Shown here one piece after another: positions 33,895-64,000 of a DNA stretch of 64,000 nt. This DNA comes from an uncultured Acidimicrobiaceae bacterium (GTDB lineage Bacteria; Actinomycetota; Acidimicrobiia; Spongiisociales; ZC4RG35). The first letter of the stretch is position 1, and every line of letters starts with the position of its first letter. The stretch is taken from positions 28,156 to 92,155 of the forward strand of contig CAZLEQ010000004.1 of the NCBI GenBank assembly GCA_964558575.1. The letters are read 5' to 3'. The notes beneath the pieces were generated by a model. It was not told the DNA's origin. It saw only the letters and a program-made list of their open reading frames with translations, and searched no databases. Position numbers and translations under genes: made by a program.

Positions 33895-33965
33895 GTATTC
33901 CTCCTCGACCGGGGTCCGCCCCTCCCTACCGGGATCTGTCAGGACGGGTTCATTCTCAACTCCAA

Positions 33966-38900: not shown

Positions 38901-38909
38901 CCTCGCCCC

Positions 38910-41029: not shown

Positions 41030-41672
41030 CGCCTTCCTCACCCGTGTCGGCCGGGCATCCTTGACCTCGGTGCTGCCCGACCCTCCCCGCGTCGCCGGCT
41101 CGCTCAGGGAGCCCGATGGCATCGACCTGCTCGAATTGTTCCGGGCGCGGGCCCAGGCGGTCAACGCCGTCATCCACGGGCCGGTCAGCCGTCATGGCGT
41201 TCCCCGCGCGGTGGCCGCCATCGCCGGAGGACATGACGCAGAGACCTTCGTGACGTGGGACGACCTCCCGGTCAGCGGTGTGGCGGCCACGCTGCAGTCG
41301 GCCGGGGTGAGGCGAGTCGACCATTGGGTCCCCGACAAGGACCGGGCCGAGCACAACCTGTCCTACCGCGACCTCGACATGGGCGTCACCGGGGCGCATG
41401 CCGCCCTGGCCGAGAGTGGCAGCCTGGTGCTCATGCACGGCGAGGGGAGACCTCGCATGGCCAGTCTCATCCCTGACGTCCACATCGCTCTGCTCGAGGT
41501 GGCTGCCGTCGAGTGGACGTTGGCCTCCTGGGCGGAGAAAAACCCCGATTTGGTGGCGGAGACGACGAATCTGGTGGTCGTCACCGGTCCGAGCCGGACC
41601 GGAGACATCGAACTTCAGCTCAATCTCGGTGTTCACGGGCCGAGACATGTCCACATCGTGATGATCAGATGA
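41019..41672 (+). CDS. lutC: lactate utilization protein C (LUD domain)
   Basis: 217 aa. LUD-domain pattern (GVTGAHAALAESGSLVL). Confidence 0.8.
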   Translation: MERDAFLTRVGRASLTSVLPDPPRVAGSLREPDGIDLLELFRARAQAVNAVIHGPVSRHGVPRAVAAIAGGHDAETFVTWDDLPVSGVAATLQSAGVRRVDHWVPDKDRAEHNLSYRDLDMGVTGAHAALAESGSLVLMHGEGRPRMASLIPDVHIALLEVAAVEWTLASWAEKNPDLVAETTNLVVVTGPSRTGDIELQLNLGVHGPRHVHIVMIR

Positions 41673-50310: not shown

Positions 50311-51192
50311 TCAAATGCCGAACATCAGCTCCCGGAGGTCGATCACCGTGCCCTCGTAGGTGTCGGGATCGATCCGGATCGAGCCCAGTCGGAGCCCCGT
50401 CATTCCTTCACCGACGTTGGTCATGACGCGGAGCGTCTCGTCCTCGACCTGGAGGATCCCCAGACCGAGACAACCTCCCGCGCTGTCCTGCACCCCGACC
50501 AGCACCTTGTCGAGACGACCCAGGTTCAACCCCACCGGGAGGGTGGGAGCGAACACCGTCGGGCGGACCTTCCACCGTTCCAGCGGTGGCCGCAACGCCT
50601 TGGCGAAGGCCTCGGTCCGGCGACGGGCCCGATCGTCGGGACCGAGGGGGATCAGGGAGGGGTCGGTGGGAGCGGTCACCACGTCGACGTCCAGGAACCG
50701 TCTCAGCATCCCCACCACCGGCTCCATCTCCTCGCCACGTTGGAGTGCGATGACGAGGTCGGGTCGGCACAGCTCTGCCTTGTGGTACTTGAGGGTCTCG
50801 CCAGACACGCCAGAGGCGATGGCAGTGGTGTCGACCACGATGACGTTGCCGAGACGGCGAGCCCGTTCGACCATGACCGCAGTCGCCACTACCTGTTGCA
50901 GCACGAGCCGGGAGGAGCTGATCGCACCGACGAAGTGGAGAGCGTCCGGTTCGTGGGCGTTGGCAAGATCCGACTCGGAGTCGAAGACCTTCAATCCGAC
51001 GCAGGCGGGAGGGCCCACCGTCGATATGCCGATGTCGGCGTCGACGAGCACCGGCCGATGCCCGGCAGCGAGCGCGTGACGGACCGCATCCATCGCCACC
51101 GTGGTCTTGCCGGTGTCCAGCCCACCGATGAGCATGGTGACGCCGGGCGACGCCGCCTGGCGGGCGAGGGCCTCGTGTGCTGGATCGGCCAT
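50311..51192 (-). CDS. Clp1/Grc3-like P-loop polynucleotide kinase family protein
   Basis: Walker A MLIGGLDTGKTTV. VLVDADIG. Clp1-like central region (NVIVVDTTAIASGVSG...RPDLVIALQR). Confidence 0.55.
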   Translation of the reverse strand: MADPAHEALARQAASPGVTMLIGGLDTGKTTVAMDAVRHALAAGHRPVLVDADIGISTVGPPACVGLKVFDSESDLANAHEPDALHFVGAISSSRLVLQQVVATAVMVERARRLGNVIVVDTTAIASGVSGETLKYHKAELCRPDLVIALQRGEEMEPVVGMLRRFLDVDVVTAPTDPSLIPLGPDDRARRRTEAFAKALRPPLERWKVRPTVFAPTLPVGLNLGRLDKVLVGVQDSAGGCLGLGILQVEDETLRVMTNVGEGMTGLRLGSIRIDPDTYEGTVIDLRELMFGI

Positions 51193-51257
51193 ACGCGCAA
51201 TATAGGTACTCCTTGGGGTTGGGCCTTCGGCCGGCCCGCGGGGTAGCGTCGCTACCG

Positions 51258-52082
51258 ATGTCCCGCCCGATCAGTTTCTTGTCGGACTTCGGCCACCACG
51301 ACGAGTTCGTCGGGGTGGTTCACGGCGTACTGGCCAAGCTCGCCCCCACCTCACGGGTCATCGACGTCGGCCATGGTTTTCCGCGCGGCAACGTCAAGGC
51401 GGCGGCCCTCGCCCTGACCCGTGCCGTGCAGTATCTGCCCGAAGGTGTGTGCCTGGCGGTGGTCGACCCGGGAGTGGGCACCGATCGCAAGGCGATCGCC
51501 GCCGATACCGCTTGGGGGGTGTTCGTCGGCCCCGACAATGGCCTCCTCTCGCCGGCGGTGGCGATGGTCGGGGGCGCCACCAGGATCGTCTCGATCGAGA
51601 ACCCGGAGGCGATGATCCCCTCTCCGGGCGAGACCTTCCATGGACGTGACGTCTTCGCCCCTGCCGCTGCCGTGCTGGCCTCAGGTGAGGCGGAGATCGA
51701 CGAGTTGGGGCCTGAAGTGTCCGGGGAAGAGATCATGCCACTGCTGTTGCCTCTCACCGAGCTGGAGGGGTCCTCGGTCTCAGGCGAGGCCTGGTGGGTG
51801 GACACCTTCGGAAATGTTCAGACCAATATCGCCCCGGATGACGCTGCGGCGCTCGGTCTCAGTCCCGGGGACACGGTGACGGTGAAGGTGGGCTCCACTC
51901 TCCACTCGGTGCCGTGGGTCACCTCCTACGGGGACGTCGTTGAGGGCGAGACGCTCATCCACGTCGACTCGGTGGGTCTGCTCGCCCTGGCGGTTCGGGC
52001 CGGGCGGGCCGACGAGGAGCTCAATCTCGCCGAGGGGGTGGCGGTGACCCTCACGTCGAATAGAGCAGCCACAGCTGGATGA
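51258..52082 (+). CDS. SAM hydroxide adenosyltransferase (DUF62, chlorinase/fluorinase-related)
   Basis: 274 aa from MSRPISFLSDFGHHDEFVGVVHGV. VDPGVGTDR and ETFHGRDVFAPAAA motifs. Confidence 0.7.
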   Translation: MSRPISFLSDFGHHDEFVGVVHGVLAKLAPTSRVIDVGHGFPRGNVKAAALALTRAVQYLPEGVCLAVVDPGVGTDRKAIAADTAWGVFVGPDNGLLSPAVAMVGGATRIVSIENPEAMIPSPGETFHGRDVFAPAAAVLASGEAEIDELGPEVSGEEIMPLLLPLTELEGSSVSGEAWWVDTFGNVQTNIAPDDAAALGLSPGDTVTVKVGSTLHSVPWVTSYGDVVEGETLIHVDSVGLLALAVRAGRADEELNLAEGVAVTLTSNRAATAG

Positions 52083-52424: not shown

Positions 52425-52685
52425 TTGAGAAGTTTATCTGTGAAATTCTTGACCAGAGAAGGCTGCCATCTCTGCGACGAGGCGAGACCGGTCCTGGAGA
52501 AGGTGGCCAGGAGCATGAACGTGACCATCGAGGAGGTCGACATCGACGGCGACGACGAGCTCACCAAGCTCTACGGGCTCAGGGTTCCGGTGGTCCTGGG
52601 CACCCACGATCGGGTCCTCGCCGAAGGGGTCATCGACGATCGCAAGCTGCTGAAGGACGCGCTGAGGGGGGAAGTCGACCTCTAG
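52425..52685 (+). CDS. glutaredoxin-like (DUF836/thioredoxin-fold) small protein
   Basis: FLTREGCHLCDEARPVLE CxxC motif. GGAGAG 7 nt upstream of a TTG start (alternative GTG at 52440). Confidence 0.6.
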   Translation: MRSLSVKFLTREGCHLCDEARPVLEKVARSMNVTIEEVDIDGDDELTKLYGLRVPVVLGTHDRVLAEGVIDDRKLLKDALRGEVDL

Positions 52686-52690: not shown

Positions 52691-53815
52691 CTATCCGGAG
52701 AGCCCGACCGAGGCGTCGGCGTCACCCTCGGGTGGCGCCTCTCCGTTCTCGGGGGCTTCCCCGTTTTCGGGTGTCTCCCCGTCTTCGGGTGTCTCCCCGT
52801 CTTCGGTTGGCTCCCCGTCTTCGGGTGTCTCCCCGTCTTCGGGTGTCTCCCCGTCGTCACCGTCGCCCGCGTCCGCGAGACCACAATCGACCAGCGTCTC
52901 GTCTGCGTTCGCACCTCCGAAGCGGACCCGTTCGAAGGCGACCACCGCCCGCAGTTGCTCGTCGGTGAGGGCCTGGTGTCCCGGCATGCCACCGGCCACC
53001 GGCTTGTTGGTGTCTCCGTAGGTGGCTTCGAACCCGGCCGATCCCAGGAGGACCCACTCGACATGGTCCTCACAGGCCCCGAAGGTGGTGAGCACGCCGG
53101 TCATCGCCGGGAAGCTTCCCACCCCTTGCCCATCGCCGCCATGGCAGCCGGCACAGGTCGAAGCCGCGGTCACCGCCCCCGCGTAGAGATCGCCTCCCAG
53201 AGCGATGAAGTCGGTGGTGCCTGGGCCGACTCCTCCGCCGGTGAACTCGGAGCCGTCGCAGTTGACGATCTCCCCGGAGATGATGTCGACTCTCAACTCG
53301 GTTCCCTCGCCACAGGCCCCCGTCGCCGAGCCGCCCAATGTGAACAGAGCGAACAACGGTGCGACCAGGAGCAGTCCCACCAGCCAGCGGGGGAGGTCGA
53401 AATTGGTCCTCTCCCTGATGCCGGCGGTGGGGACGGTCACCACCTCCGGCAGGTGGGCCGCCTCTGCGGCGGTGACCTCCGCTGGGGTTGGGGCCCGGGT
53501 GGGGGCTGTAGCGGCAGCGGCGGCAGGGGCAGGGGCCTCCGCCGGCTCCGGGGTCTCGATGACCGGCTCGGGTGCCGCCGGCTCCTCGGCGGCGTCCGGC
53601 TCCTCGGCTCTGGCCGTGTCCTCCGTCTCTATCTGCGGCTGATCTGCCTCCCCCGGACTCGCCTCGCTCGAAGGGGAGGAGACCGCCTCGCCTCCGGCCC
53701 AGGCGGCGAGGATCTCGTCCACGTTCGCCCCGGTCTCGGCGGCGCGCGCCTCCGCCGAGCGCTGTACCAGCGTCTCGGGCAGACCCATCGCCTCGGCTGC
53801 GGCGCTGAGGCTCAC
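52691..53815 (-). CDS. membrane-anchored monoheme c-type cytochrome, CcoO-like, with long cytoplasmic N-terminal extension and acidic C-terminal repeats
   Basis: 374 aa. N-terminus MSLSAAAEAMGLPETLVQRSAEARAAETGANVDEILAAWAGG. One TM. CAGCH heme motif. C-terminal (DGETPE)n tail. Confidence 0.7.
   Translation of the reverse strand: MSLSAAAEAMGLPETLVQRSAEARAAETGANVDEILAAWAGGEAVSSPSSEASPGEADQPQIETEDTARAEEPDAAEEPAAPEPVIETPEPAEAPAPAAAAATAPTRAPTPAEVTAAEAAHLPEVVTVPTAGIRERTNFDLPRWLVGLLLVAPLFALFTLGGSATGACGEGTELRVDIISGEIVNCDGSEFTGGGVGPGTTDFIALGGDLYAGAVTAASTCAGCHGGDGQGVGSFPAMTGVLTTFGACEDHVEWVLLGSAGFEATYGDTNKPVAGGMPGHQALTDEQLRAVVAFERVRFGGANADETLVDCGLADAGDGDDGETPEDGETPEDGEPTEDGETPEDGETPENGEAPENGEAPPEGDADASVGLSG
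52741..52866. repeat. 18-bp tandem repeat (about 7 units, CCCCGTCTTCGGGTGTCT) inside the cytochrome c gene
   Basis: Read directly from sequence. Encodes DGETPEDGETPEDGEPTEDGETPEDGETPENGEAPENGEAP. Confidence 0.7.
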
Positions 53816-54591
53816 GATCCTCCTCCAGGAGCAGATTCGCTGAGATAGGCGACGAGGTCGTCGAGGTCCTCGGCGCTGAGATCGTGCCCCGGGTGCCCAC
53901 CGAACCCCCCGATGATGGCCTCGAATTGCGAAGTGGTGACTCTCGAGCCCACATCGGAGAGGTCAGGGCCGAGTCGCCTCGTGCCGAGGATCTGGTTGGT
54001 GTCGTTGAGTGTCACAGGGCCCAGTCCCACATCGGCTACCACCGGTCGCACCATCTGGGTGTGGCACGCCACACAGCCGGTGACGGCATAGACTTCCTGG
54101 CCACGGAGGGCTCCAGCCGAGAAGGCGATCTCCGAAGTGCGGGCTCCAGGGTTGTCGGTGGGGATCGATGGCCCCACCAGTCCCACCATGACGACGATGA
54201 TGAAGAGCCCGACGATGCCGGCGAGCACCGCCATCGGGTTGTCCTCGACTCCCACCAGCACGGGTGGCTTGTAGGGACCTGCGGGGACAGTCGGAGTGGG
54301 TGCTTCGGCCCGCTTCTCGGGGGTCTCGATCGCTACCTCCGGGGGCTTCGGCTCCTCGGCGGTGCCCGGTTCCTCGGCGACGGGCGTCTCCTCCGTCTCG
54401 GCCTGCGGCTGATCGACCACCTCCGGACTCGCCTCGCTCGAAGGGGAGGAGATCGCCTCGCCTCCGGCCCAGGCGGCGAGGATGTCGTCCACGTTCGCCC
54501 CGGTCTCGGCGGCGCGGGCCTCTGCCGAGCGCTGCACCAGCGTCTCGGGCAGACCCATGGCCTGGGCGGCGGCGGAGAGCTGGTCACTCAT
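53812..54591 (-). CDS. membrane-anchored monoheme c-type cytochrome, CcoO-like (paralog)
   Basis: 259 aa from MSDQLSAAAQAMGLPETLVQRSAEARAAETGANVDDILAAWAGG. One TM. CVACH heme motif. GTRRLGPDLSDVGSR and LVAYL CcoO-like elements. ATGA overlaps on both sides. Confidence 0.7.
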   Translation of the reverse strand: MSDQLSAAAQAMGLPETLVQRSAEARAAETGANVDDILAAWAGGEAISSPSSEASPEVVDQPQAETEETPVAEEPGTAEEPKPPEVAIETPEKRAEAPTPTVPAGPYKPPVLVGVEDNPMAVLAGIVGLFIIVVMVGLVGPSIPTDNPGARTSEIAFSAGALRGQEVYAVTGCVACHTQMVRPVVADVGLGPVTLNDTNQILGTRRLGPDLSDVGSRVTTSQFEAIIGGFGGHPGHDLSAEDLDDLVAYLSESAPGGGS

Positions 54592-56066
54592 CGGGCTCCT
54601 CCGACCTCTCGGCTCACCAGCACCTCCTGGGGGATCGCCCTCCCCCGGACGACGGTTCCGAAGATGATCCCCACATAGCCGAGGATCCCCAAGAACAGGA
54701 CGATCCCGAAGAGCACGCCGATCAGGACCAGAGTGTCGTAGGTGGCGCCGACGCCGCTCGCCCACCCCTCGCCGGTGTCAACATAGGCGGCGCTGTTGGA
54801 CCCGGCGATCCACGAATAGCCGGAGAGTATTCCGGCTGCACCGAGCGAGATGAGCAGACCCACGGCGCCCGAGATGGTTAGACGCTGGAATCTGCGTGCC
54901 TTGGCCTTGGTCTCCAGTTCCTTACCCACCATGCGGGGAAGGGCGGCGAAGCTGACACTCGACACGAGAAGGGCCCCGATGCCGGTGAGGGAGACGTATT
55001 CGACGGCCTCCCAGAAGGCGGTCAACGACGTCACCGAGCCCACTGACCGGAATCCGGCGAGGGCGGCTACGGCGGCGACACCGAACGTCAGGTAGAGACC
55101 GAGGACTCCGGAGAGCACTCCCGGCTTCTCACCCAGTCGAGACCACGATCCCTCCAGTGTCATCGAGACGTTGGCGGCATTGGCCAGTGCTCCGATCGGC
55201 CAGGCGAGGCCGAGGGCCGCGGCCACACCGGCGACCCAGCCGGGGCCGGGCCCGAAGAGCAACTGGGCGGCTCCCCACCAGACCGCTGCGAAACCCAGCG
55301 ACCAGAACCCGACCAGGGCGAGCTGACGGCTGGCCAAGGGGATGTCCAGCTCCTTGACCGTCGTGTAGTACACGAGACCCGAGCCCACCGTGACCAGGAA
55401 CATGGTCACGAACCCGGCGAGGAAGAACGTCTCGGCATACGCGATGGTCACCGCCGAAGCAGCCGGCACCTCGGAGGCCAGGTGGGCGACATAGAGGAGG
55501 GGCAGCCAAATGACACCACCGAGCACGAACCACAGAGTCACGAAGCTGCGCTGCTCCTCGCGTCTGCGAATGGTGTTGACCGTCACCAGGGCGGGCACGA
55601 ACAGCACCGCAGCCAGAGGTAGGTCGAGCCACCAGGCGAGACCGAGCGGCTGACGGCCGTTGCCGAGGCCGAAGGAGATGGCGAGCACGCCCAGGGCGGT
55701 GAGGCCGGCCATTCCGAGGAGGCCGAGCCCGGCGATGCCGGCCCCCCAAAGCCGCGCCCCGGTGAGTCGGGGAAGCACGTAGTAGATCCCGCCGACCAGC
55801 GAAACGGCACCGAAGCCGATCATGAGGGTCAGGTTGGCGGCGCTCTCCAAGCGCCCGTACGGGAGGGGCAAGAGCGATCCAAAGCGGAGGGCGATCAAGG
55901 AGAGGAGCTGGAGGGCGCCTCCCAGGACCAGGAAGACCCCACCCACCAGCAAATGGGTGACTGCGAGGCGGTCTTCGACGCTTCCGCCGCCGAGCAGGGC
56001 TCGCATGTCTGCTGTTCGGGTGTCAGTCAACCGTCTTCCTCGCACCAGAAGGGACGGCGGGAGCAT
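54588..56066 (-). CDS. cbb3-type cytochrome oxidase subunit I (CcoN) homologue lacking the canonical His ligand set
   Basis: 492 aa, 12 TM. GAVSLVGGIYYVLPRLTGARLW aligns with CcoN [23 protein letters not shown], but the TM2 heme His is Asn. Only two His residues occur in the whole protein. Confidence 0.6.
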   Translation of the reverse strand: MLPPSLLVRGRRLTDTRTADMRALLGGGSVEDRLAVTHLLVGGVFLVLGGALQLLSLIALRFGSLLPLPYGRLESAANLTLMIGFGAVSLVGGIYYVLPRLTGARLWGAGIAGLGLLGMAGLTALGVLAISFGLGNGRQPLGLAWWLDLPLAAVLFVPALVTVNTIRRREEQRSFVTLWFVLGGVIWLPLLYVAHLASEVPAASAVTIAYAETFFLAGFVTMFLVTVGSGLVYYTTVKELDIPLASRQLALVGFWSLGFAAVWWGAAQLLFGPGPGWVAGVAAALGLAWPIGALANAANVSMTLEGSWSRLGEKPGVLSGVLGLYLTFGVAAVAALAGFRSVGSVTSLTAFWEAVEYVSLTGIGALLVSSVSFAALPRMVGKELETKAKARRFQRLTISGAVGLLISLGAAGILSGYSWIAGSNSAAYVDTGEGWASGVGATYDTLVLIGVLFGIVLFLGILGYVGIIFGTVVRGRAIPQEVLVSREVGGAR

Positions 56067-56204
56067 AACTACTTCGTGGATTCAGTCCGTCACTGCATTG
56101 GGGACTGTCGGTGTCACGACCGCCGGGTTCTCGAACCAGGACCCACCTGTGGTAGAAACGAACCGACAAACGTCTTTTCCGCGTCTGGGATCTACGTAAA
56201 GAAC

Positions 56205-56834
56205 ATGTATCGCCTCGCAGAATTAAGCGACCTCCGCCGCAGGAGGATCGGCGGCGGCCTGCTCTTCCTCGGTTTGGCGGGCCTCGTACTCGGGGTCATC
56301 TGGATTCACTGGTCGTCGATCCCCGAGACCGAGTCGGTCAACGGTGTCGAGGTCCCGGTCGTCGTCGACTACCTCAACTGGTGGCCGCGCGGGATCCTCT
56401 GGAAGGGGGTCGGGTATCTGGTAGTGCTCGGAGCGACCACCATGACCTTGGTCGGGGCCACCTTCCTCTGGGTGCTCAATCAGAGAATGACCTGGGCCCG
56501 TGCCACCGTGGCCGCCATCATCGCCTGGGTAGCCCTGGTGTTCTACTTCGGGATGGTTCCCTCGGAGTGGCTCAACTACGCCCAGACCGACCTCGATTGG
56601 TCCTCGCAGCGGGCCGCCATCACCATTCCCCCGTTCCTGGTCCTGGGCAACACCGTCGACATCAGTTGGGCCGTGATCAAAGACTCCATCCAGATGGGCT
56701 ACAGCCTCGGCTTGCTCGGTTTCGCCGCCGTCCTCGCCATCCAGATGCAGAAGATGAAGGAGGGGCGGCCCCCCAGCGCCGCACCCGCCGAGAAGAAGTC
56801 GCCATACGGCCGCCCGCTGGTGAGGGGGAACTGA
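56205..56834 (+). CDS. 4-TM membrane protein, first gene of the Rieske/cytochrome b operon
   Basis: 209 aa from MYRLAELSDLRRRRIGGGLLFLGL. No family recognised. Its stop overlaps the ferredoxin ATG. Confidence 0.45.
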   Translation: MYRLAELSDLRRRRIGGGLLFLGLAGLVLGVIWIHWSSIPETESVNGVEVPVVVDYLNWWPRGILWKGVGYLVVLGATTMTLVGATFLWVLNQRMTWARATVAAIIAWVALVFYFGMVPSEWLNYAQTDLDWSSQRAAITIPPFLVLGNTVDISWAVIKDSIQMGYSLGLLGFAAVLAIQMQKMKEGRPPSAAPAEKKSPYGRPLVRGN

Positions 56835-57283
56835 TGCCCAAGGGAGTCATCGACGAGACCCCGCCGATCAGGGACGACTACCAGCTCGCGGTGGTCGAGG
56901 GTGACTACTTCGCCGACAAATTGCGCCCCAAGCAGTTCCTGCACATCGACCAGTCGGAGTGCATCCTGTGTGAAGGATGTGTCGACATCTGCCCGTGGAA
57001 GTGCATCCACTACCTGTCGCTCGACGCCATCGCCGAGGCGGTCAACGTGGACCACCCCGGGGAGGACACCCAGAACATGGGTTTCTTCATCGTCGACGAG
57101 GACGAGTGCACCCGGTGCGCGCTGTGTATCGACAGATGCCCGACCAACGTCATCACCTTGGGCAAGTTCGAAGGCTCGCTCGCCGAACAGGCGCAAGAGC
57201 TGGGTCTCGACCGTCGTCCCTGGGACTTGGACACCGGGCAGCGTGACTTCAAGAATGGTTACTCGTACGGGATGCGCTGGTAG
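56834..57283 (+). CDS. 2x[4Fe-4S] ferredoxin-like protein
   Basis: CILCEGCVDICP and CTRCALCIDRCP cluster motifs. Confidence 0.75.
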   Translation: MPKGVIDETPPIRDDYQLAVVEGDYFADKLRPKQFLHIDQSECILCEGCVDICPWKCIHYLSLDAIAEAVNVDHPGEDTQNMGFFIVDEDECTRCALCIDRCPTNVITLGKFEGSLAEQAQELGLDRRPWDLDTGQRDFKNGYSYGMRW

Positions 57284-57299
57284 GGAGGCGTAGGGATCC

Positions 57300-58076
57300 A
57301 TGGCCAACGGAAACGGCAGAGTCGGACTGAGAGAGCGAGTAAGGGAGGGCGCGGAGAAGGTCTGGAACTCACAGGTCGCCGAGTCGATCATGCGTCCCGG
57401 CTCACCGTTCAAACAGGGATACTCGGACAGCCCGAGGAACCGCTCCTACGTGGTGATGAACAACGTGCTCTATCACCTCCACCCGGTGAAGGTGAAGCGG
57501 CACGGGGTGAAGCTCTCCTACACCCTGTGCCTCGGGGGCTTGAGCTTCTTTCTCTTCATCCTGCTCACCATCACCGGCATCTTCCTGATGTTCTATTACA
57601 CCCCGACCGCGGAACTCGCCTACTCGGACATGGAGGCCCTGTCGACGGACGTGGCCTTCGGGTCGCTGGTGAGGAACATGCATCGGTGGGGAGCCCACCT
57701 GATGGTGTTGTCGGTTTTCCTCCACATGAGCCGGGTGTTCTATCACGGGGCCTACAAACCGCCGCGTGAGTTCAACTGGGTGGTGGGCGTGGTCCTTCTC
57801 TTCCTCACCCTGTTCCTCTCGTTCTCCGGCTATCTGCTGCCCTGGGACCAGCTGGCGCTGTGGGCGGTCACCGTGGGCTCCAACATGGCCGGTTTCTCAC
57901 CGGTGATCGGTGAGCAGGTCAAGTTCGCCCTCCTCGCCGGGGTGGAGGTGACCGGGGCGACGTTGCTCCGCTTCTATGTGCTCCATGTGCTCGCCTTCCC
58001 GTTCATCCTGGTCATCTTCCTGGCGGTCCACTTCTGGCGGGTCCGCAAGGACGGCGGAATCTCGGGGCCCTTGTAA
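57300..58076 (+). CDS. cytochrome b6-type (split cytochrome b, N-terminal heme-binding half)
   Basis: 258 aa, four TM. Bis-His pairs ([12 protein letters not shown] and [22 protein letters not shown]). PetB/QcrB N-domain pattern. Confidence 0.85.
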
Positions 58077-58085
58077 GGAGTATCG

Positions 58086-59147
58086 ATGGTGGAGATCCCA
58101 GAGAGCCTGCTGAGACGATCGGCCGAAGCCAAGGCCAAGGCCTTGGGCGTGCCGGTCGAACAGGTCCTCGCCGAGATGAAGGGTGAGGGCCCGCCGGTCG
58201 AGCCGCCCCAATTCGAACCCGAGGGCCCGGACACCGAGGACGTGGCCCTCGAGGACGATGCCGCCGAGCCCGTGGAAGAGGTGCCCGCCGACGACGAGGC
58301 AGAAGCCCAGTCGCCCGAGGTCTCCTCGGACATCGAACAGGACGTCTTGCCCACCGAACCCAAGGAAGCCACCGCCCCGCCGGAGGAGACGCCGCGGGCG
58401 ATGGTCGCCGAGGCGGGAGCGGTCGCAGTCGCCGAAGCCGATGAGACCGAGGAAGCCGAGCAGGACGATGACGGTGACGACGGCGAGGAGTCCCCGGAAG
58501 TGGACGTCGAGGACCTGGAGGAAGGCTCCCCGGGGAACGGCTCAGGAAACGGCGCCGGCGACGGCAAGGTGGCCGCGATGGTCAGCCCCCGGCCCTCGGT
58601 ACCTCCGACCGGGCTTCCCGAGGGAGTCCGCACCCAGCGTCTCCTCACGGTGGTCAAGGCCAGGGCGATCCAGAATGTCAAGGCGGAGCCGACCGACAAG
58701 GTGAACACCTGGCCCCATCTCATGCTCATGGAGTTCGGTGCCCTGCTCGCCATCACCGGCCTGCTGGTGATCATGTCGGTGGTGATCCACTCGCCGTTGC
58801 TGGAGCCGGCCAACTTCAACGCCACTCCCAACCCCTCCAAGGCGCCGTGGTACTTCCTCGGGCTCCAGGAACTGCTCAGCTACTTCGATCCGCAGATCGC
58901 CGGGGTCATGGTCCCGCTGTTCATCGGGATGATCGGGTTCATGCTGATTCCCTACGTCGACAAGAATCCCTCCACCCGGCCCACCGACCGCAAGTTCGCC
59001 ATCATGCTCTACTCGTTCTTCCTGGCGGGATCGGCGACCCTGACCATCATCGGCGTTCTGTTCCGGGGTCAAGGGTTCAATTTCACCTTTCCGTGGCGGG
59101 ACGGAGTGTTCTTCGACGACCTGAAAGACTGGGTGCACTTCGAATGA
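58086..59147 (+). CDS. cytochrome bc complex subunit IV (PetD-like) with long acidic N-terminal extension
   Basis: AAGGAG SD. C-terminal 3-TM PetD-like domain (NTWPHLMLMEFG...KAPWYFLGLQELL). N-terminus MVEIPESLLRRSAEAKAKALGVPVEQVLAEMKG followed by an E/D/P-rich region. Confidence 0.8.
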   Translation: MVEIPESLLRRSAEAKAKALGVPVEQVLAEMKGEGPPVEPPQFEPEGPDTEDVALEDDAAEPVEEVPADDEAEAQSPEVSSDIEQDVLPTEPKEATAPPEETPRAMVAEAGAVAVAEADETEEAEQDDDGDDGEESPEVDVEDLEEGSPGNGSGNGAGDGKVAAMVSPRPSVPPTGLPEGVRTQRLLTVVKARAIQNVKAEPTDKVNTWPHLMLMEFGALLAITGLLVIMSVVIHSPLLEPANFNATPNPSKAPWYFLGLQELLSYFDPQIAGVMVPLFIGMIGFMLIPYVDKNPSTRPTDRKFAIMLYSFFLAGSATLTIIGVLFRGQGFNFTFPWRDGVFFDDLKDWVHFE

Positions 59148-60037
59148 CGTTCGCCAACTGGATTCTCGTCGCCGTCGCGGTATTCGCCATCCTCGGAGCG
59201 GTTGGCGCCTTCACCATCGCCTTTCGTCGCACCAGGGCCGAGCGGCCCGATCCCACGGCGGGGGTCTCCGATGAGACCCGACGGGCCGACCGGTCGATGA
59301 TTGGGGTGCGCGTCGACCCGATCCCCGTGCCCGAGGCGGAACCAGATGAAGTCGACGAGACCCCTGAAGTCGGAGAAGCCGCCGAGGGGGAGCCGTCCGA
59401 GGGCAAGGAGGAGAGGGAACTGGTTGGCGCCGGGGCCGCGGTCGAGGTCGTCGAGGCCCAGCGTGTCGTCGAAGTCAGCCCCGAGGAGTCCGGTGTCAGC
59501 CGGCGTCAGTTCTTCAACCGCGCCATCGGCGCCACCTTCGGGTTGTTTCTCGGTCTGCAAGGTGTCTACTACCTGGCCTTCTTCTGGCCGAAGCTGAGCG
59601 GCGGCTTCGGCACCGACGTCGATGCCGGGTCCCTCGAGGCTCTCTCTGCCCAGACCGTCAATCCCGATGGTTCGGTGGTGCCGGTCTTCGTTCCCGAGGC
59701 GCGGGCCTACATCGTCCCCGCCCCCGACACCCTCTCCAGTCAGTACGAAGGGCGCGACGTCGCCGCCGGCGGTTTCATGGCCCTTTTCCAGCGATGCGTC
59801 CACCTGGGATGCCGGGTGCCGTGGTGCTCCACCTCGATCGGGTTCGAATGCCCCTGCCATGGGTCCCGGTACAACTCCATCGGCGAATACTTCTCGGGCC
59901 CGGCGCCGAGGAACCTCGACCGTTTCGTGGTCGAGGTCAGAGAGGATCGCTTCATAGTCCGCACTGGCACCATCATCGAGACGCCCCGCGCTCCCCGAGC
60001 GAGTGTCTCGTATCCACAGGGCCCGAGTTGCATCTGA
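59144..60037 (+). CDS. Rieske [2Fe-2S] iron-sulfur protein (Tat substrate)
   Basis: ATGA overlap with subunit IV. TM/Tat motif SRRQFFNRAIG. CVHLGC...CPCHGS cluster boxes. Confidence 0.85.
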   Translation: MTFANWILVAVAVFAILGAVGAFTIAFRRTRAERPDPTAGVSDETRRADRSMIGVRVDPIPVPEAEPDEVDETPEVGEAAEGEPSEGKEERELVGAGAAVEVVEAQRVVEVSPEESGVSRRQFFNRAIGATFGLFLGLQGVYYLAFFWPKLSGGFGTDVDAGSLEALSAQTVNPDGSVVPVFVPEARAYIVPAPDTLSSQYEGRDVAAGGFMALFQRCVHLGCRVPWCSTSIGFECPCHGSRYNSIGEYFSGPAPRNLDRFVVEVREDRFIVRTGTIIETPRAPRASVSYPQGPSCI

Positions 60038-60059
60038 TGGTCGAGATGGAGGCCGGGAA

Positions 60060-61766
60060 GTGACCGCCGACGTAGTCATCGTCCTCGCCGTCGTCGCCGG
60101 GATCATCTGGCTCGGTTTGATGCTGGTCTCGGCGCTGAGGAACCGGGGTGGGGTGGAGGAAGTCGCTCCCAACCTCAAGCCCGGCATCGACGACCAACAG
60201 CTCGAGACCAGGCGGCTCGAGGGAGGACAGAAGGCGGCCATCGCCTTCTCCGCCTTCCTCGCCATCTCACTGCCGCTCTACTTCCTCGGCGAGAACAGCC
60301 GCCAAGAGGGGTTCGTGGAGGAGTTCGCAGAGGCCTCCGTCGAGCGGGGTGAGCATCTGGTCGAGGAGTTCGCCTGTTTCGACTGCCACGGCCCGCTCGG
60401 CTCCGGCGGCTCGGCGCCGTTCGTCGAGCAGCGATCGGGCATCAGCGTCTCGTGGGCGGCTCCCCGGCTCGATGACATCCTTTATCGATACGACGAGGAC
60501 GCGGTCAACTTCTGGATCACCTATGGCCGGGGCAATACGCCGATGCCGGCATGGGGTCTCGCCGGGGGTGGCCCGATGAACGAGAATCAGGTCGAAGACG
60601 TGGTCAACTATCTGGCGACCATCCAGATACCCCAGCAGGAGGCGGTCGACCACACCCCGCTCCTGATCGACCAGGAGCTCGGGCGGCTCGCCAATGCTGC
60701 GGGTACCGTCGAGCAGGCGATCATCAACCAGGCTCAGACGCTCGCCGAGATCGACCAGGCGCCCGAGGATCTCGCCGTCATCGGGCCTCTTGCCGACCGG
60801 GCGGTCGAGATCGTCGACAATCCGGACGACGGCATCGACACCGACGGTGACGGGCTCTCCGATGCTGCCGAGGCGGAGTTGTCGGATATCTCGGCACGGG
60901 CCGTGGAGCACTTCCGGGTGATCGAGCCCGTGACCCTCGACCCCGAGACTCCCGATGCCGAGCTGGTCGACGCAGTCCTCGCCGAGATGGAGGCAGCTCT
61001 CGACACCAATCCCGTATTCGAGATCTACATCAACCGGATCGAGGCAGCCCTCGAGGGCGACGAGATCAGTGAGGAGTCCCCAGACACCGATGGCGACGGA
61101 ATCTCGGATGCCGCGGAGGGTGCGATCAGTGGTCTGATCTCGGAGGCGAGCTCGGCCACCGTCCCCTCGGGGGTCACCCAGATCGACCTCGATCCGACCA
61201 ACCCCGAGACCACTGGTGACCCCGACCTCAGAACGGCCAATTCGATGGTCGGAGGGCTCGAGTCGATTGCCATCAACCTCAGGGTCGCCGTCGAGAACGT
61301 CGAGCGAATCCGACCCCAGCAGGAGGCCGGTCTCCAATTTCTGGTCGATTCCGCCGAGAGGGCGGCCTGGGAGGTCGATTTCGCCGGGGTCGCCGCGGCG
61401 ATGGGCGGTTCCGAGGACGACGCCCGGCGGGCGGTTGCGCTATTCAACGCCTACTGCGCCCGGTGCCACACCGCAGGTTTCTCCGCCGGCATGGCCTACA
61501 CCCAGGAGATCGGCTCCGGCGGATTCGGCCCCGCTCTCTGGGACGGGAGACCGGTGGTCCAGTTCGGCGACGAACCGGCAGACCCGGATCAGACCGACCT
61601 GCTCGTCGACTTCATAATCAATGGATCTCAACCCGAGACGCCCTACGGGCTCAACGGGTTCGGGTCGGGTCGGATGCCCGCGTTCGGCGCCGTCCTCGAC
61701 CAGGACGACATCGACCTCCTCGCCCGCTATCTCCGCGCCGGCAATCTGAACGGAATGGAGGACTAG
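60060..61766 (+). CDS. membrane-anchored diheme c-type cytochrome with an inserted domain of about 330 aa carrying thrombospondin-type-3-like Ca-binding repeats
   Basis: GTG start with GGAGG SD. N-terminal TM. Heme motifs CFDCH and CARCH. DTDGDGLSDAAE and DTDGDGISDAAE (DxDxDGxxD) loops between them. Confidence 0.7.
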   Translation: MTADVVIVLAVVAGIIWLGLMLVSALRNRGGVEEVAPNLKPGIDDQQLETRRLEGGQKAAIAFSAFLAISLPLYFLGENSRQEGFVEEFAEASVERGEHLVEEFACFDCHGPLGSGGSAPFVEQRSGISVSWAAPRLDDILYRYDEDAVNFWITYGRGNTPMPAWGLAGGGPMNENQVEDVVNYLATIQIPQQEAVDHTPLLIDQELGRLANAAGTVEQAIINQAQTLAEIDQAPEDLAVIGPLADRAVEIVDNPDDGIDTDGDGLSDAAEAELSDISARAVEHFRVIEPVTLDPETPDAELVDAVLAEMEAALDTNPVFEIYINRIEAALEGDEISEESPDTDGDGISDAAEGAISGLISEASSATVPSGVTQIDLDPTNPETTGDPDLRTANSMVGGLESIAINLRVAVENVERIRPQQEAGLQFLVDSAERAAWEVDFAGVAAAMGGSEDDARRAVALFNAYCARCHTAGFSAGMAYTQEIGSGGFGPALWDGRPVVQFGDEPADPDQTDLLVDFIINGSQPETPYGLNGFGSGRMPAFGAVLDQDDIDLLARYLRAGNLNGMED

Positions 61767-61769
61767 GCG

Positions 61770-62129
61770 ATGTTTCGTGAGCTCTTCAGATCGCTTCTCT
61801 CGGCCAACGTGTTCGTCACCGGCATCATCCTGACCGCGGTCTCGGTGTTGCTCTTCTTCGGCTCCATCTATCTCTTCAACCACACGAACCTGGGCCGACG
61901 TCTCGGATTCCTGGTCACCGGTGCGGCCGTCTTCGGCTGGTTGGCCCTCAACTCGATGCTGTTCGTCGTCTACGCGCCACGCGGCCCGATCCCCGAGAGC
62001 ATCGAAGGTCTCAACGCCTTCGAGATCCGCATCATCCCCATCACCTACCTGATGGTGTCCCTGGTGTTGTTCCTGGTGTTCCTGGTCGCCCTCCACCAAT
62101 ACGAGGAGACCAAGGAAGCCGGGGGGTAG
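61770..62129 (+). CDS. small 3-TM membrane protein, last gene of the Rieske/cytochrome b operon
   Basis: 119 aa. Starts 3 nt after the cytochrome c stop. No family recognised. Confidence 0.4.
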   Translation: MFRELFRSLLSANVFVTGIILTAVSVLLFFGSIYLFNHTNLGRRLGFLVTGAAVFGWLALNSMLFVVYAPRGPIPESIEGLNAFEIRIIPITYLMVSLVLFLVFLVALHQYEETKEAGG

Positions 62130-62219: not shown

Positions 62220-62828
62220 TTACCCGTAGTAGGAGAGGATCTGCAGCTCGGTGCTCAGGTCGACCTGACGGACCGGGACCTCGTCGGGCACGGACACCCG
62301 GACCGGGGCGAAGTTGAGGATCGACGAGATCCCCGCCGCCACCAGCCCATCGGCCACTCTCTGCGCCGCGCTGGCCGGGACCGCCAGTATGGCCATGTCG
62401 AACAGACCTCGGCGGCAGTCGCCGTCGATGCGATTCGAATCTCTCACCTCCAGCTCGCCGACGTGTCGACCGATCCGCTTCGGGTCGACGTCGTACATGG
62501 CCACCACGTCGAAACCCCGCTGACTCAGGCCGTGGTATCGGGCGAGAGCCGTCCCGAGGTTTCCGGCCCCGACGATTGCCACCCGTCGCCTCCCTTCGAT
62601 ACCCAGCTCCTTCTGGATCCGGGAGCGGAGATCGGAGACCGAGTATCCGACACCTCTGGTCCCCTGGAAACCGAGGTCCGAGAGGTCGCGTCGCACGTTT
62701 GCCGGGTTGACACCGGCGGCGTCGGCGAGCTCACCCGAGCTGATGGTTCGCTGCGACTCGCGGATGTCGTCGAGGAGCCGGAGGTATCTCGGCATCCGGG
62801 AGACGGTGGCGCGTGAGAGCCCGCTCAT
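62220..62828 (-). CDS. rex: redox-sensing transcriptional repressor Rex
   Basis: SRATVSRMPRYLRLL winged-helix, SSGELADAAGVNPANVRRDLSDLGFQGTRGVGYSV, NAD(H) Rossmann VAIVGAGNLGTALARY. Alternative start at 62867. Confidence 0.8.
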   Translation of the reverse strand: MSGLSRATVSRMPRYLRLLDDIRESQRTISSGELADAAGVNPANVRRDLSDLGFQGTRGVGYSVSDLRSRIQKELGIEGRRRVAIVGAGNLGTALARYHGLSQRGFDVVAMYDVDPKRIGRHVGELEVRDSNRIDGDCRRGLFDMAILAVPASAAQRVADGLVAAGISSILNFAPVRVSVPDEVPVRQVDLSTELQILSYYG

Positions 62829-62891
62829 CTCGAGGAACGTTACAGCCGCACTTCCTCGTTTCCCCATTCCGCAGATACCATCCGGAGCTCC

Positions 62892-64000
62892 ATGTCCTCT
62901 CCCCGAGTCCTCGTCGTCGGTGGCGGCCCCGCCGGGTCGGCCGCCGCCTACTGGATGGCGCGGGACGGACTCGACGTCACCCTCGTAGAGAAGAAGGAAT
63001 ACCCCAGGGAGAAGACATGCGGCGACGGGCTCACCCCGAGGGCGATCCTGCAGCTCCAGGACATCGGCTTCGACTTCGACGTCCCCGAGTTCCACCGCAT
63101 CACCGGGTTGCGCTCCTACGCCGGCGACGACTTGATGATCGAAATGCCCTGGCCAGACCACAGTCGCTTCCCCAATTGGGGTGGTGTCATCAGGCGGCGG
63201 GACCTCGATCAGCAGGTGGCCCGCTTGGCGGAGAAGGAAGGGGTTCGAATCCGCGAGAAGACCACCGCCACCCCGGTGATCGAAGACGGCCGGCTCGTCT
63301 CGGTGACCCTGACCAACGGCGGTGGTGAGGAGATGGTCACCCCCGACATCACCATCATCGCCGATGGTTCGATGAACCGGTTCGGCCGCGATCTGGGGAC
63401 CAGCAGACGCCGTGACTACCCCATGGGCATGGCGGCACGCGGCTACTTCTCCTCTCCTCGGTCCGACGACCCGTTCCTCGAGAGCCAGCTCGACCTGCGC
63501 GACTCATCCGGGGCGACGATGCCCGGGTACGGCTGGGTCTTCCCCCTCGGTGACGGCACCGTCAACGTCGGAGTGGGACTCCTCTCCACGTTCAAGAGGT
63601 GGAAGGACGTCAACACCACCCACATGATGAACGACTACGTCGCCTCGGCACCCGACTATTGGGGTCTCAGCGAAGAGTCGAAGTTGAGCAAGCCCATGGG
63701 CGGCAAGCTCACCATGTCGTACTCGAAGAGCCCGTTGGTGGGGTCCAACTGGCTGACCATCGGAGACGCCGCCGGGGCGATCAACCCCTGGAACGGGGAA
63801 GGCATCTCGTATGCCTACGAGACCGGTCGCATCGCCGCCGGATACGTGAGCGAGTCGATGGGCAGTGAAGACCTCGGCCTGCTCCGTCGCTATCCCCGGC
63901 GTCTCGAGGACGAGTACGGGCTCTACTACAAGATGGCCCGCATCTTCGTGAAGCTGATCGGAAACCCGTCGGTTATGCGGACCCTCGCTCACACCGGCCT
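62892..64000 (+). CDS. geranylgeranyl reductase family FAD-dependent oxidoreductase (partial, runs off window end)
   Basis: VLVVGGGPAGSAAAYWMARDGLDVTLVEKK FAD-binding GxGxxG. CGDGLTP. No stop before the window end. Confidence 0.7.
   Translation, partial: MSSPRVLVVGGGPAGSAAAYWMARDGLDVTLVEKKEYPREKTCGDGLTPRAILQLQDIGFDFDVPEFHRITGLRSYAGDDLMIEMPWPDHSRFPNWGGVIRRRDLDQQVARLAEKEGVRIREKTTATPVIEDGRLVSVTLTNGGGEEMVTPDITIIADGSMNRFGRDLGTSRRRDYPMGMAARGYFSSPRSDDPFLESQLDLRDSSGATMPGYGWVFPLGDGTVNVGVGLLSTFKRWKDVNTTHMMNDYVASAPDYWGLSEESKLSKPMGGKLTMSYSKSPLVGSNWLTIGDAAGAINPWNGEGISYAYETGRIAAGYVSESMGSEDLGLLRRYPRRLEDEYGLYYKMARIFVKLIGNPSVMRTLAHTG

What the first reader, a model, noticed from the sequence alone, without database searches (positions are those of the whole stretch)
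54588..56066. cbb3-type CcoN homologue stripped of its heme/CuB histidines
Sequence conservation with CcoN is clear in TM2-TM3 (...GGIYYVLPRLTGARLWGAG...). The TM2 low-spin heme His is Asn. The protein has only two His in total (VTHLL, VAHLAS) versus six essential ligands in any heme-copper oxidase. Yet it is still operonic with two CcoO-like cytochromes c. It is therefore a non-catalytic scaffold, a protein using different cofactors, or the product of errors.
Basis: partly seen in the sequence, partly recalled or inferred. Interest (0 to 1): 0.8.

Follow-up and report, generated by a model that had tools for sequence, protein, structure and literature searches.

The report
Cofactor-less CcoN oxidase relic beside Rieske/b6 complex
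This is a real, conserved gene for an oxidase-fold membrane protein that has lost every residue needed to bind its haems and copper. It is always encoded next to an uncharacterised Rieske/cytochrome b6 complex, so it is probably a structural relic and not the "cbb3 oxidase" it is annotated as.

Summary
ORF 54588-56066(-) is a full-length 12-helix homologue of cbb3 CcoN: HHalign gives probability 100% over 442 columns, and the AF2 model matches solved CcoN at TM 0.80. It has only two His. Three alignment methods place non-ligand residues in all six metal-ligand columns (A77, A217, A267, Q268, V355, Y357). The cross-link Tyr and most proton-channel residues are gone too.

This is not a sequencing error. 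Relatives occur in 175 GTDB species, dN/dS is 0.11-0.19, and the ligand-less forms cluster together in a distance tree, some fused to a CcoO domain.

The gene overlaps (ATGA, GTGA) a CcoO-like monohaem cytochrome c and a second monohaem cytochrome c. The trio always lies divergent to an operon of membrane protein, 2[4Fe-4S] ferredoxin, cytochrome b6 (haem ci Cys), subunit IV (APWY), Rieske, dihaem cytochrome c and a small membrane protein. A reverse search anchored on the ferredoxin confirmed this in 44 of 44 loci. A novel ~44-aa cytoplasmic N-terminal module is shared by both cytochromes c and subunit IV.

Best reading (inferred, not shown): a non-catalytic scaffold that holds c-type cytochromes beside the b6 complex. 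I found no prior description. Databases label it "cbb3 oxidase subunit I".

The parts
54588..56066 (-). Pseudo-CcoN: a 12-TM haem-copper-oxidase subunit-I fold with no haem or CuB ligands. The probable true start is 56030 (TTG) or 56006 (ATG).
   Evidence: Ligand columns are A77, A217, A267, Q268, V355 and Y357; the cross-link Tyr is A261. The AF2 model has pLDDT 79 and pTM 0.86, and TM 0.79-0.80 to cbb3 CcoN structures.
53812..54591 (-). CcoO-like membrane-anchored monohaem cytochrome c (259 aa). Its ATG overlaps the pseudo-CcoN stop codon (ATGA).
   Evidence: FixO scores 36.8 bits against a gathering score of 29.6. CxxCH is at aa 173. CHTQMVRP and GPDL are conserved, the canonical Met-ligand region is absent, and a His in GGHPG is invariant.
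52691..53815 (-). Second membrane-anchored class-I monohaem cytochrome c (374 aa) with an acidic GETPED-type C-terminal repeat. Its GTG overlaps the upstream stop codon (GTGA).
   Evidence: Cytochrom_C scores 39.4 bits; the ccoP model gives only E 1.6e-5. CxxCH is at aa 221.
54451..54582 (-). ~44-aa N-terminal cytoplasmic module, copy 1, in the CcoO-like protein.
   Evidence: Module HMM hit at E 4.5e-26. No Pfam or PDB match.
53681..53812 (-). N-terminal module, copy 2, in the second cytochrome c.
   Evidence: Module HMM hit at E 4.1e-25.
58095..58181 (+). N-terminal module, copy 3, at the N-terminus of subunit IV of the b6 complex.
   Evidence: An HMM built only from the two cytochromes c hits it at E 2.9e-8. 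It is the only other hit among 881 window ORFs. The module recurs in the relatives.
56205..56834 (+). Conserved membrane protein of unknown family. First gene of the divergent operon.
   Evidence: No Pfam family. Syntenic wherever the flank reaches it, including the distant L085 and L086.
56834..57283 (+). 2[4Fe-4S] ferredoxin-like subunit (149 aa).
   Evidence: Fer4 families. 87-98% identical across close loci. Used as the anchor for the reverse synteny test.
57300..58076 (+). Cytochrome b6 (split type). Its single Cys lies in YTLCLGG, the position of the haem ci attachment Cys.
   Evidence: PF00033 at E 7e-47. Sequence.
58086..59147 (+). Subunit IV (PetD-like) with Qo motif APWY and a ~210-aa acidic cytoplasmic N-terminal extension.
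   Evidence: PF00032. Sequence. The APWY clade is described in PMC4122944.
59144..60037 (+). Rieske iron-sulfur protein (CVHLGC...CPCHGS). Its start overlaps the subunit IV stop codon.
   Evidence: PF00355. Sequence.
60003..61766 (+). Membrane-anchored dihaem cytochrome c with TSP3-type Ca-binding repeats. The start is uncertain.
   Evidence: Two CxxCH motifs at aa 125 and 485. Pfam hits.
61770..62129 (+). Small conserved membrane protein (119 aa). Last gene of the operon.
   Evidence: No Pfam family. 71-97% identical across close loci.
62223..62830 (-). Rex-like redox-sensing regulator, a conserved neighbour. The start is approximate.
   Evidence: Put_DNA-bind_N plus CoA_binding. In the same position in L001, L002, L004, L085 and L086.

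Best explanation
The gene encodes a pseudo-CcoN. It is the catalytic-subunit fold of a cbb3-type haem-copper oxidase that has lost haem b, haem b3, CuB, the His-Tyr cofactor, the Ca2+/propionate-binding residues and most of the proton channel. It therefore cannot reduce O2 or NO at the canonical site.

It is made together (overlapping start and stop codons) with a CcoO-like monohaem cytochrome c and a second membrane-anchored monohaem cytochrome c.

Most likely the 12-helix body now serves only as a membrane scaffold. It would hold these c-type haems on the outer face of the membrane, next to the ferredoxin-containing APWY-type Rieske/cytochrome b6 complex encoded divergently. That would make it a relic of a bc-cbb3 supercomplex whose oxidase half went catalytically dead. 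Electrons from Rieske and the dihaem cytochrome c would pass through the retained haems c to a separate terminal oxidase or other acceptor.

The three cytoplasmic N-terminal modules, on both cytochromes c and on subunit IV, would tether the two halves to each other or to a common cytoplasmic partner.

Shown: homology, ligand loss, purifying selection, gene overlaps, reciprocal synteny, the shared module, and CcoN-CcoO fusions in sister clades.

Inferred: absence of any cofactor, physical association with the b6 complex, and the direction and destination of electron flow.
For: - Fold and homology over 12 TM helices.
- 0% His in the six ligand columns across 57 ligand-less representatives, against 100% in 21 true CcoN representatives. 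The cross-link Tyr is kept in 0%, the T215 equivalent in 7%, S240 in 18%, the Y317 equivalent in 9%, and the conserved Arg in 19%. Structural G/P/W, GR, YY and FW positions are kept.
- dN/dS is 0.11-0.19.
- 175 GTDB species carry a relative.
- ATGA and GTGA overlaps link it to two haem-c genes whose CxxCH motifs are invariant.
- Sister clades fuse the ligand-less CcoN to a CcoO domain with a single CxxCH, so the N-O partnership is retained.
- Every locus with enough flank, including the 27-34% identical L085 and L086, has the divergent operon of membrane protein, ferredoxin, b6, subunit IV, Rieske, cytochrome c and small protein. L088 has the same association with ccm genes interposed.
- Reverse test anchored on the ferredoxin: 44 of 44 metagenome loci carry a divergent CcoN-like ORF, and 52 of 54 such ORFs have no His in any ligand column.
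- The N-terminal module HMM links subunit IV to both cytochromes c (E 2.9e-8). Copy number stays at about 3-4 per cluster even in fused clades, where extra copies appear in the cytochrome c or in subunit IV.
Against: - No biochemical, expression or structural data exist for any member.
- I had no model coordinates, so I could not check whether the former haem pockets are collapsed or open.
- H38 is 99% conserved in the close family. By alignment and topology it lies near the cytoplasmic end of TM1, but a role in binding something is not excluded.
- Y357 occupies a former haem b ligand column in the close clade.
- Synteny and a shared module suggest physical association with the b6 complex but do not prove it.
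- The b6 operon already has its own dihaem cytochrome c, so the need for two more haems c is unexplained.
- No terminal oxidase is present in the 64-kb window to receive the electrons.
Confidence: 0.55

Rival explanations
1. A stand-alone cytochrome c carrier complex. The ligand-less CcoN anchors the two haem-c proteins but is not physically part of the Rieske/b6 complex. The trio would be a separate membrane electron relay, for example between the b6 complex and an aa3 oxidase, or to or from periplasmic or extracellular donors and acceptors such as iron. Its gene would sit beside the b6 operon only for co-regulation.
For: The three genes form their own overlapping-gene operon on the opposite strand. 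The b6 operon has its own dihaem cytochrome c. In L088 the ccm genes sit between the two units.
Against: The N-terminal module is shared between subunit IV and both cytochromes c, and its copy number is compensated in fused clades. Synteny is reciprocal in every informative locus down to 27% identity.
Confidence: 0.2
2. Still an enzyme or cofactor-binding protein. The fold would bind a different cofactor through non-His ligands (haem via Tyr, Met or Lys; a quinone; or a metal) and catalyse a new redox reaction fed by the CcoO-like haem c.
For: Purifying selection is strong. H38, E74, N78, Q268 and Y357 are conserved in the close family. Pockets lined by small residues (Ala/Gly at former ligand sites) could accommodate a ligand. 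gNOR shows that ligand replacement within the haem-copper oxidase (HCO) superfamily can keep function (PMC11214002).
Against: Across the wider ligand-less clade the only invariant residues are G64, P79, R80, T329 and P357 (model numbering). No candidate metal ligand is conserved. The former ligand columns are variable: A/F/G, A/G/N, A/R/T, R/Q/F, V/T/L and Y/F/L. The propionate- and Ca-binding Arg and Glu are also lost.
Confidence: 0.12
3. An ion- or proton-conducting or sensing module. The HCO scaffold would be reused as a channel, transporter or conformational sensor coupled to the redox state of the attached haems c.
For: Polar and charged residues are conserved at the cytoplasmic helix ends (R100, R169, E171, Y233, Y234). 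There is precedent for redox enzymes evolving from or to transporter-like modules (general knowledge).
Against: The C-family proton-channel residues are mostly lost: T215->V, S240->A, Y251->A, and the Y317 equivalent is kept in 9% (the residue list is from my recollection of the cbb3 literature). No conserved intramembrane acidic or basic residue exists across the wider clade.
Confidence: 0.08
4. A decaying pseudogene, or an assembly or sequencing artefact.
For: All relatives found are from MAGs or metagenomes.
Against: The frame is intact in all 120 closest homologues and in relatives from 175 GTDB species. dN/dS is 0.11-0.19. Length, synteny and coupling are conserved.
Confidence: 0.01

Closest known systems
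cbb3-type cytochrome c oxidase subunit CcoN (C-family HCO; e.g. 3MK7 P. stutzeri, 6XKW R. capsulatus, 8SMR P. aeruginosa)
   Same: Same 12-TM fold (TM 0.79-0.80) and the closest sequence family. It has a CcoO-like partner encoded immediately downstream, followed by a further cytochrome c. N-O fusions occur in both.
   Different: All six metal ligands, the cross-link Tyr, most channel residues and the Ca/propionate residues are missing. It scores 95.8 bits against the 583-bit equivalog cutoff. The third subunit is monohaem, not the dihaem CcoP. No ccoQ or ccoGHIS genes are nearby.
bc1-cbb3 supercomplexes (R. capsulatus CIII2CIV 6XKW; P. aeruginosa 8SMR)
   Same: A Rieske/cytochrome b complex is paired with a CcoN/CcoO/cytochrome c module and membrane-anchored cytochromes c. 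This is the architecture I propose the locus descends from.
   Different: There the cbb3 half is an active oxidase and the genes are not divergent neighbours. Here the oxidase half lacks all catalytic-site ligands and the bc part is a split b6 type with a ferredoxin subunit. Physical association is not shown here.
APWY clade of Rieske/cytochrome b complexes (Kao & Hunte 2014, PMC4122944)
   Same: Subunit IV here carries APWY. That paper lists a split cytochrome b from an Acidimicrobidae member (Ilumatobacter) among those that fall in either the PEWY-cyt c clade or the APWY clade, and states that no APWY complex has been characterised.
   Different: The sections of that paper I read and searched mention no CcoN-like partner for the APWY complexes. 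I did not confirm that Ilumatobacter carries the pseudo-CcoN.
gNOR and other divergent HCO families (Murali et al. 2024, PMC11214002)
   Same: These are HCO relatives with altered active sites, found by mining genomes and metagenomes.
   Different: [quoted passage not shown] Here all six are gone, along with both haem sites.
Cofactor loss in HCO accessory subunits (qNOR NorC-like domain without haem c; bo3 subunit II without CuA)
   Same: These are precedents for HCO components that keep the fold and lose the redox cofactor (PMC11214002).
   Different: In those cases the catalytic subunit stays intact. Here the catalytic subunit itself is emptied while the accessory haem c is kept.

Membership tests
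Haem-copper oxidase superfamily, subunit I (PF00115) | Homologous 12-TM core fold | tested here: met
   PF00115 scores 59.8 bits against a gathering score of 34.8. HHalign gives probability 100% over 442 columns. Foldseek gives TM 0.8 to CcoN and 0.68-0.76 to NorB and A-type subunit I.
Haem-copper oxidase superfamily, subunit I (PF00115) | Two His ligands of the low-spin haem (TM2 and TM10) | tested here: not met
   They are A77 and Y357. His occurs in 0% of 57 ligand-less representatives.
Haem-copper oxidase superfamily, subunit I (PF00115) | Proximal His of the high-spin haem (TM10) | tested here: not met
   It is V355.
Haem-copper oxidase superfamily, subunit I (PF00115) | Three His ligands of CuB/FeB (TM6 and TM7) | tested here: not met
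   They are A217, A267 and Q268.
C-family oxygen reductase CcoN (TIGR00780) | Score above the curated equivalog cutoff | tested here: not met
   95.8 bits against a cutoff of 583.15.
C-family oxygen reductase CcoN (TIGR00780) | Cross-linked active-site Tyr in TM7 | tested here: not met
   It is A261, and Tyr occurs in 0% of the ligand-less clade.
C-family oxygen reductase CcoN (TIGR00780) | Conserved proton-channel residues (T215, Y223, S240, Y317 in P. stutzeri numbering, recalled from the literature) | tested here: not met
   Only Y223->Y233 is kept. T215->V225, S240->A250, and the Y317 equivalent is T327.
C-family oxygen reductase CcoN (TIGR00780) | CcoO monohaem partner encoded adjacent | tested here: met
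   FixO hit above the gathering score, with an ATGA overlap. Fused in sister clades.
C-family oxygen reductase CcoN (TIGR00780) | Dihaem CcoP third subunit | tested here: not met
   The third gene has one CxxCH. The ccoP model scores 24.4 bits against a cutoff of 180.
cNOR/qNOR NorB | FeB site of three His plus Glu, and two haems b | tested here: not met
   No His in any ligand column. NorB structures match less well than CcoN.
Pseudoenzyme (a working category, not a curated family) | Clear homologue of an enzyme that lacks the catalytic residues yet is under purifying selection and phylogenetically persistent | tested here: met
   dN/dS 0.11-0.19; 175 species; the ligand-less forms cluster together.
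Pseudoenzyme (a working category, not a curated family) | Demonstrated absence of cofactor and activity | not testable with these tools
   This needs purified protein, haem and metal analysis, and activity assays.

The most novel reading that the evidence does not exclude
The emptied oxidase fold may not be an inert anchor. It could be a working new module of a previously unrecognised respiratory supercomplex made of ferredoxin, b6/subunit IV, Rieske, dihaem c and the pseudo-cbb3 trio. For example, it could be a redox-gated ion or proton path, or a new quinone- or cofactor-binding site driven by the attached haems c. That would mean the haem-copper oxidase scaffold has been re-used for an energy-coupling job other than O2 or NO reduction.
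Probability: 0.12. Interest if true: 0.9.

Novelty: new variant of a known kind. Interest (0 to 1): 0.72.

Why it matters
1. In the literature I could search, the haem and CuB histidines are treated as essentially universal in the haem-copper oxidase superfamily (PMC11214002). A large, ancient, selected clade that has lost all of them shows that the catalytic subunit itself can be exapted as a pseudoenzyme.

2. NCBI and JGI annotate these proteins as "cbb3-type cytochrome c oxidase subunit I". Marker-gene surveys that use CcoN to infer high-affinity microaerobic respiration may therefore over-call it for Acidimicrobiia, which occur in many of the soil, sediment and marine metagenomes searched here. 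I did not test any such pipeline.

3. The gene flags an uncharacterised respiratory unit for direct biochemical and cryo-EM study. That unit is an APWY-type split b6 complex with a haem ci Cys, a built-in 2[4Fe-4S] ferredoxin and a shared cytoplasmic tether module.

Tried and rejected
- Sequencing error or pseudogene: rejected.
- Alignment artefact hiding the histidines: rejected by three independent alignments with true-CcoN controls.
- Exact look-up of the 100%-identical protein P0001: not on record.
The narrower A3 worked.
- Taxonomy of the distant and fused clades: the listing of cluster members and the second homologue search returned almost no organism names, so the taxonomic reach beyond Acidimicrobiia/Actinomycetota is unresolved. 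About 17 of the 80 GTDB loci carry other labels (Acidobacteriota, Acidobacteria, Boseongicola, Gammaproteobacteria). I could not check these labels.
- Identity of the N-terminal module: no Pfam or PDB match. A profile search returned only short partial ORFs, those named being mostly Acidimicrobiia plus one Ca. Actinomarina, so no new carrier proteins were found.
- Rex operator or inverted repeat in the divergent intergenic region 56007-56204: matches were no better than chance and there were no inverted repeats.
- AFDB Foldseek search, intended to find named cultured-organism orthologues: the library was unavailable.
- Literature searches for a ligand-less CcoN, a cbb3-like pseudo-oxidase, or a partner of APWY complexes: nothing found. 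The library lacks most subscription papers, so absence is not proof.
- A terminal oxidase in the window: none in 64 kb.
Full report
**What is there.** ORF 54588-56066 on the minus strand encodes 492 aa from the first ATG. It has two His (H38, H195), no Cys, and is 55% Gly/Ala/Leu/Val. It passes the Pfam COX1 gathering score (59.8 against 34.8 bits). Its best NCBIfam hit is ccoN at E 2.7e-27, but its 95.8 bits are far below the 583-bit equivalog cutoff. Its best solved relatives by sequence are cbb3 CcoN chains (6xkw_n at E 1e-17; 9g6b_A, 3mk7_A, 8smr_E). An AlphaFold2 model built on 52 relatives has pLDDT 79 and pTM 0.86. It superposes on cbb3 CcoN structures over its whole length (TM 0.79-0.80, E about 1e-12). 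It fits NorB and A/B-type subunit I less well. So it is a full 12-helix CcoN homologue, not a fragment. Orthologues begin about 10-20 residues after the first ATG, so the true start is probably 56030 (TTG) or 56006 (ATG).

**Ligand columns.** Three independent alignments agree.
- HMMER pairwise alignments to PDB CcoN.
- A MAFFT L-INS-i alignment with 98 full-length representatives, in which the true oxidases all show H/H/HH/HxH.
- An HHalign profile-profile alignment of the family against 13 true CcoNs, with probability 100%, E 5.8e-41 and 442 columns.

The substitutions are haem b His->A77 and Y357, haem b3 His->V355, and CuB His->A217, A267 and Q268. The cross-linked Tyr is A261.

I then looked at 56 columns that are at least 85% conserved in 21 true CcoN representatives. 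The 57 ligand-less representatives keep the structural Gly, Pro, Trp, GR, YY and FW positions. They retain 0% of the six His and the Tyr. They retain 7% of T215, 18% of S240, 9% of the Y317 equivalent, 19% of a conserved Arg and 33% of a conserved Glu. That these last residues belong to the C-family proton channel and the Ca/propionate sites is my recollection of the cbb3 literature, not a result obtained here.

**Not an error.**
- The 120 closest homologues (64-100% identity) have 0-6 His each. Those carrying NCBI organism names are Acidimicrobiia, and many are labelled "cbb3-type cytochrome c oxidase subunit I".
- A scan of one genome per GTDB species found 175 relatives via the motif YY[VL]LPRLTG. 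The best 80 are 55-94% identical and are mostly labelled Acidimicrobiia or Actinomycetota MAGs.
- Pairwise dN/dS against eight orthologues is 0.11-0.19.

**A large ligand-less clade.** An exhaustive HMMER search of 1.84 billion cluster representatives gave 551 hits. Among the 98 full-length representatives in the top 150, 57 have no His in any ligand column. In a neighbour-joining tree all but two of them form one cluster, separate from the true CcoNs and from a few partial forms such as P0182 (HQAKEH) and P0218 (HEAPHH). About half of that cluster are 610-750-aa proteins in which the ligand-less CcoN is fused to a C-terminal CcoO-like domain with one CxxCH (COX1 plus FixO on one chain). The tree is distance-based and midpoint-rooted, so a single loss event is likely but not proven.

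**The operon.** The pseudo-CcoN stop codon overlaps the ATG of a 259-aa CcoO-like protein (ATGA). That protein's stop codon overlaps the GTG of a 374-aa cytochrome c (GTGA). Both junctions have Shine-Dalgarno-like sequences upstream.
- The CcoO-like protein passes the FixO gathering score. It keeps CxxCH, the CHTQMVRP motif and GPDL. It lacks the canonical C-terminal Met-ligand region and has an invariant His in GGHPG.
- The third protein is a class-I monohaem cytochrome c. It is not CcoO-like and not a dihaem CcoP.

**The neighbour.** Divergently transcribed from the same ~200-bp intergenic region are seven genes:
- a 209-aa membrane protein of no known family;
- a 149-aa 2[4Fe-4S] ferredoxin;
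- a split cytochrome b6 whose only Cys lies in YTLCLGG, the haem ci attachment position;
- a subunit IV with the Qo motif APWY;
- a Rieske protein;
- a dihaem cytochrome c with TSP3 repeats;
- a 119-aa membrane protein.

Kao & Hunte (PMC4122944) defined an APWY clade and reported that none of its complexes had been characterised. They list a split cytochrome b from Ilumatobacter among those falling in either that clade or the PEWY-cyt c clade.

**Synteny in both directions.** Every one of the 86 loci first retrieved through the CcoN homologue shows this divergent operon wherever the flank reaches it. These include the fused L085 (27% identity) and L086 (34%). L087, retrieved later, shows the same operon. 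The distant L088 has the same association, with ccm genes interposed and nuo genes downstream. I then anchored a metagenome scan on the ferredoxin subunit. All 44 loci with at least 2.6 kb of upstream flank carry a divergent CcoN-like ORF. Of 54 such ORFs of at least 430 aa, 52 have no His in the six ligand columns and two have one. Four true-CcoN controls read HHHHHH.

**A shared module.** Both cytochromes c begin with a conserved ~44-aa sequence (…AAAAALGLPEALVQRSAEARAAETGASVDEILAAWAGGE…), followed by a long acidic, Pro-rich linker and a single TM helix. An HMM built only from these two proteins hits the N-terminus of subunit IV (IPESLLRRSAEAKAKALGVPVEQVLAEMK) at E 2.9e-8, and nothing else among 881 window ORFs. 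By topology all three copies must be cytoplasmic: CxxCH domains are periplasmic, and the PetD N-terminus is on the n-side. This is inference. Three copies per cluster are found in 65 of 88 loci. In fused clades, where CcoO has no free N-terminus, extra copies appear in the cytochrome c (L085) or in subunit IV (three copies in L087). The module matches no Pfam family or PDB chain.

**Interpretation.** The data fit a pseudoenzyme: an oxidase skeleton kept for its structure.

*What the evidence shows.* The CcoO interface is evidently retained, given the gene overlaps and the fusions in sister clades. The periplasmic haems c are retained. The partnership with a particular Rieske/b6 complex is invariant.

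*Proposed model.* The trio is the dead oxidase half of an ancestral bc-cbb3-type supercomplex. It now serves as a scaffold and cytochrome c relay beside the b6 complex. Electrons leave to a separate terminal oxidase or acceptor. The three N-terminal modules tie the two halves together or to a common cytoplasmic partner, possibly the ferredoxin subunit.

*What remains inference.* The absence of any cofactor, the physical association, and the electron route are all inferred.

*Alternatives.* These are a stand-alone cytochrome c relay, a new cofactor or new chemistry, an ion path or sensor, and an artefact. They are weighed in the rivals section. The new-cofactor idea is weakened because no candidate ligand is conserved across the wider clade.

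**Novelty.** Murali et al. [quoted passage not shown] I found no paper describing a ligand-less CcoN or a CcoN-like partner of APWY complexes. The searchable library omits most subscription journals, so this is not proof of absence. [quoted passage not shown]

**Limits.**
- All members found are from MAGs or metagenomes.
- The taxonomic reach of the distant clades is unresolved.
- I had no model coordinates to inspect the former haem pockets.
- No expression or biochemical data were available.
- No terminal oxidase lies in the window.

Noticed in passing
window 54451-54582(-), 53681-53812(-), 58095-58181(+): A ~44-aa N-terminal module with no Pfam or PDB match, followed by acidic Pro-rich linkers. 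It is shared by both cytochromes c of the pseudo-cbb3 operon and by subunit IV of the divergent b6 operon. Its copy number stays at about 3-4 per cluster even when genes are fused in relatives (L085, L087).
   Followed up: yes
window 56205-62129(+): An uncharacterised seven-gene Rieske/b6 operon. It has an unknown 209-aa membrane protein, a built-in 2[4Fe-4S] ferredoxin, a haem ci-type Cys in b6, Qo motif APWY and a small terminal membrane protein. The ferredoxin and b6 are extremely conserved (86-98% identity where pseudo-CcoN is 56-94%).
   Followed up: partly
window 60003-61766(+): The dihaem cytochrome c of the b6 operon carries two thrombospondin-type-3 Ca-binding repeats (DTDGDG.SDAAE) in a long acidic linker between its two haem domains.
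   Followed up: no
window ~52700-52850(-): The second cytochrome c ends in a tandem acidic repeat (GETPED GETPED GEPTED GETPED GETPEN GEAPEN GEAPPE). The repeat is not conserved in orthologues.
   Followed up: no
window 62223-62830(-) and 62817-63998(+): A Rex-like redox-sensing regulator and a geranylgeranyl-reductase-family FAD protein flank the b6 operon. The FAD protein may be MenJ-like, a menaquinone side-chain reductase; that is my inference. Both stay near it in most annotated relatives (L001, L002, L004, L085; L086 has Rex only; L087 and L088 have the FAD gene only). No Rex-box better than chance was found.
   Followed up: partly
representative search, proteins P0182, P0218, P0247, P0257, P0244, P0262: Other CcoN-related clusters keep only some ligands, for example the haem b pair only (HQAKEH) or the haem ligands without CuB (HEAPHH). 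Most are fused to a CcoO domain. These may be further undescribed degenerate or re-purposed HCO families.
   Followed up: no
locus L088 (JGI 3300036859): In a distant ligand-less subclade the full ccm cytochrome c maturation operon sits between the pseudo-CcoN and the ferredoxin-b6-Rieske operon, and complex I (nuo) genes follow. The gene after pseudo-CcoN is 201 aa with no Pfam hit, and the N-terminal module is absent.
   Followed up: no
window 50311-51192(-) and 51177-52082(+): A CLP1_P-type P-loop protein and a SAM hydroxide adenosyltransferase-family protein lie next to the cluster. They are conserved there in relatives, together with a glutaredoxin-like ORF at 52425-52685.
   Followed up: no
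window 38901-41669(+), 30532-33999(-), 5400-8722(-): Other window content: a LutABC-like lactate-utilisation cluster, a class II (B12) ribonucleotide reductase with a TSCPD domain, and two tandem S41/PDZ peptidases. No terminal oxidase genes occur anywhere in the 64 kb.
   Followed up: no
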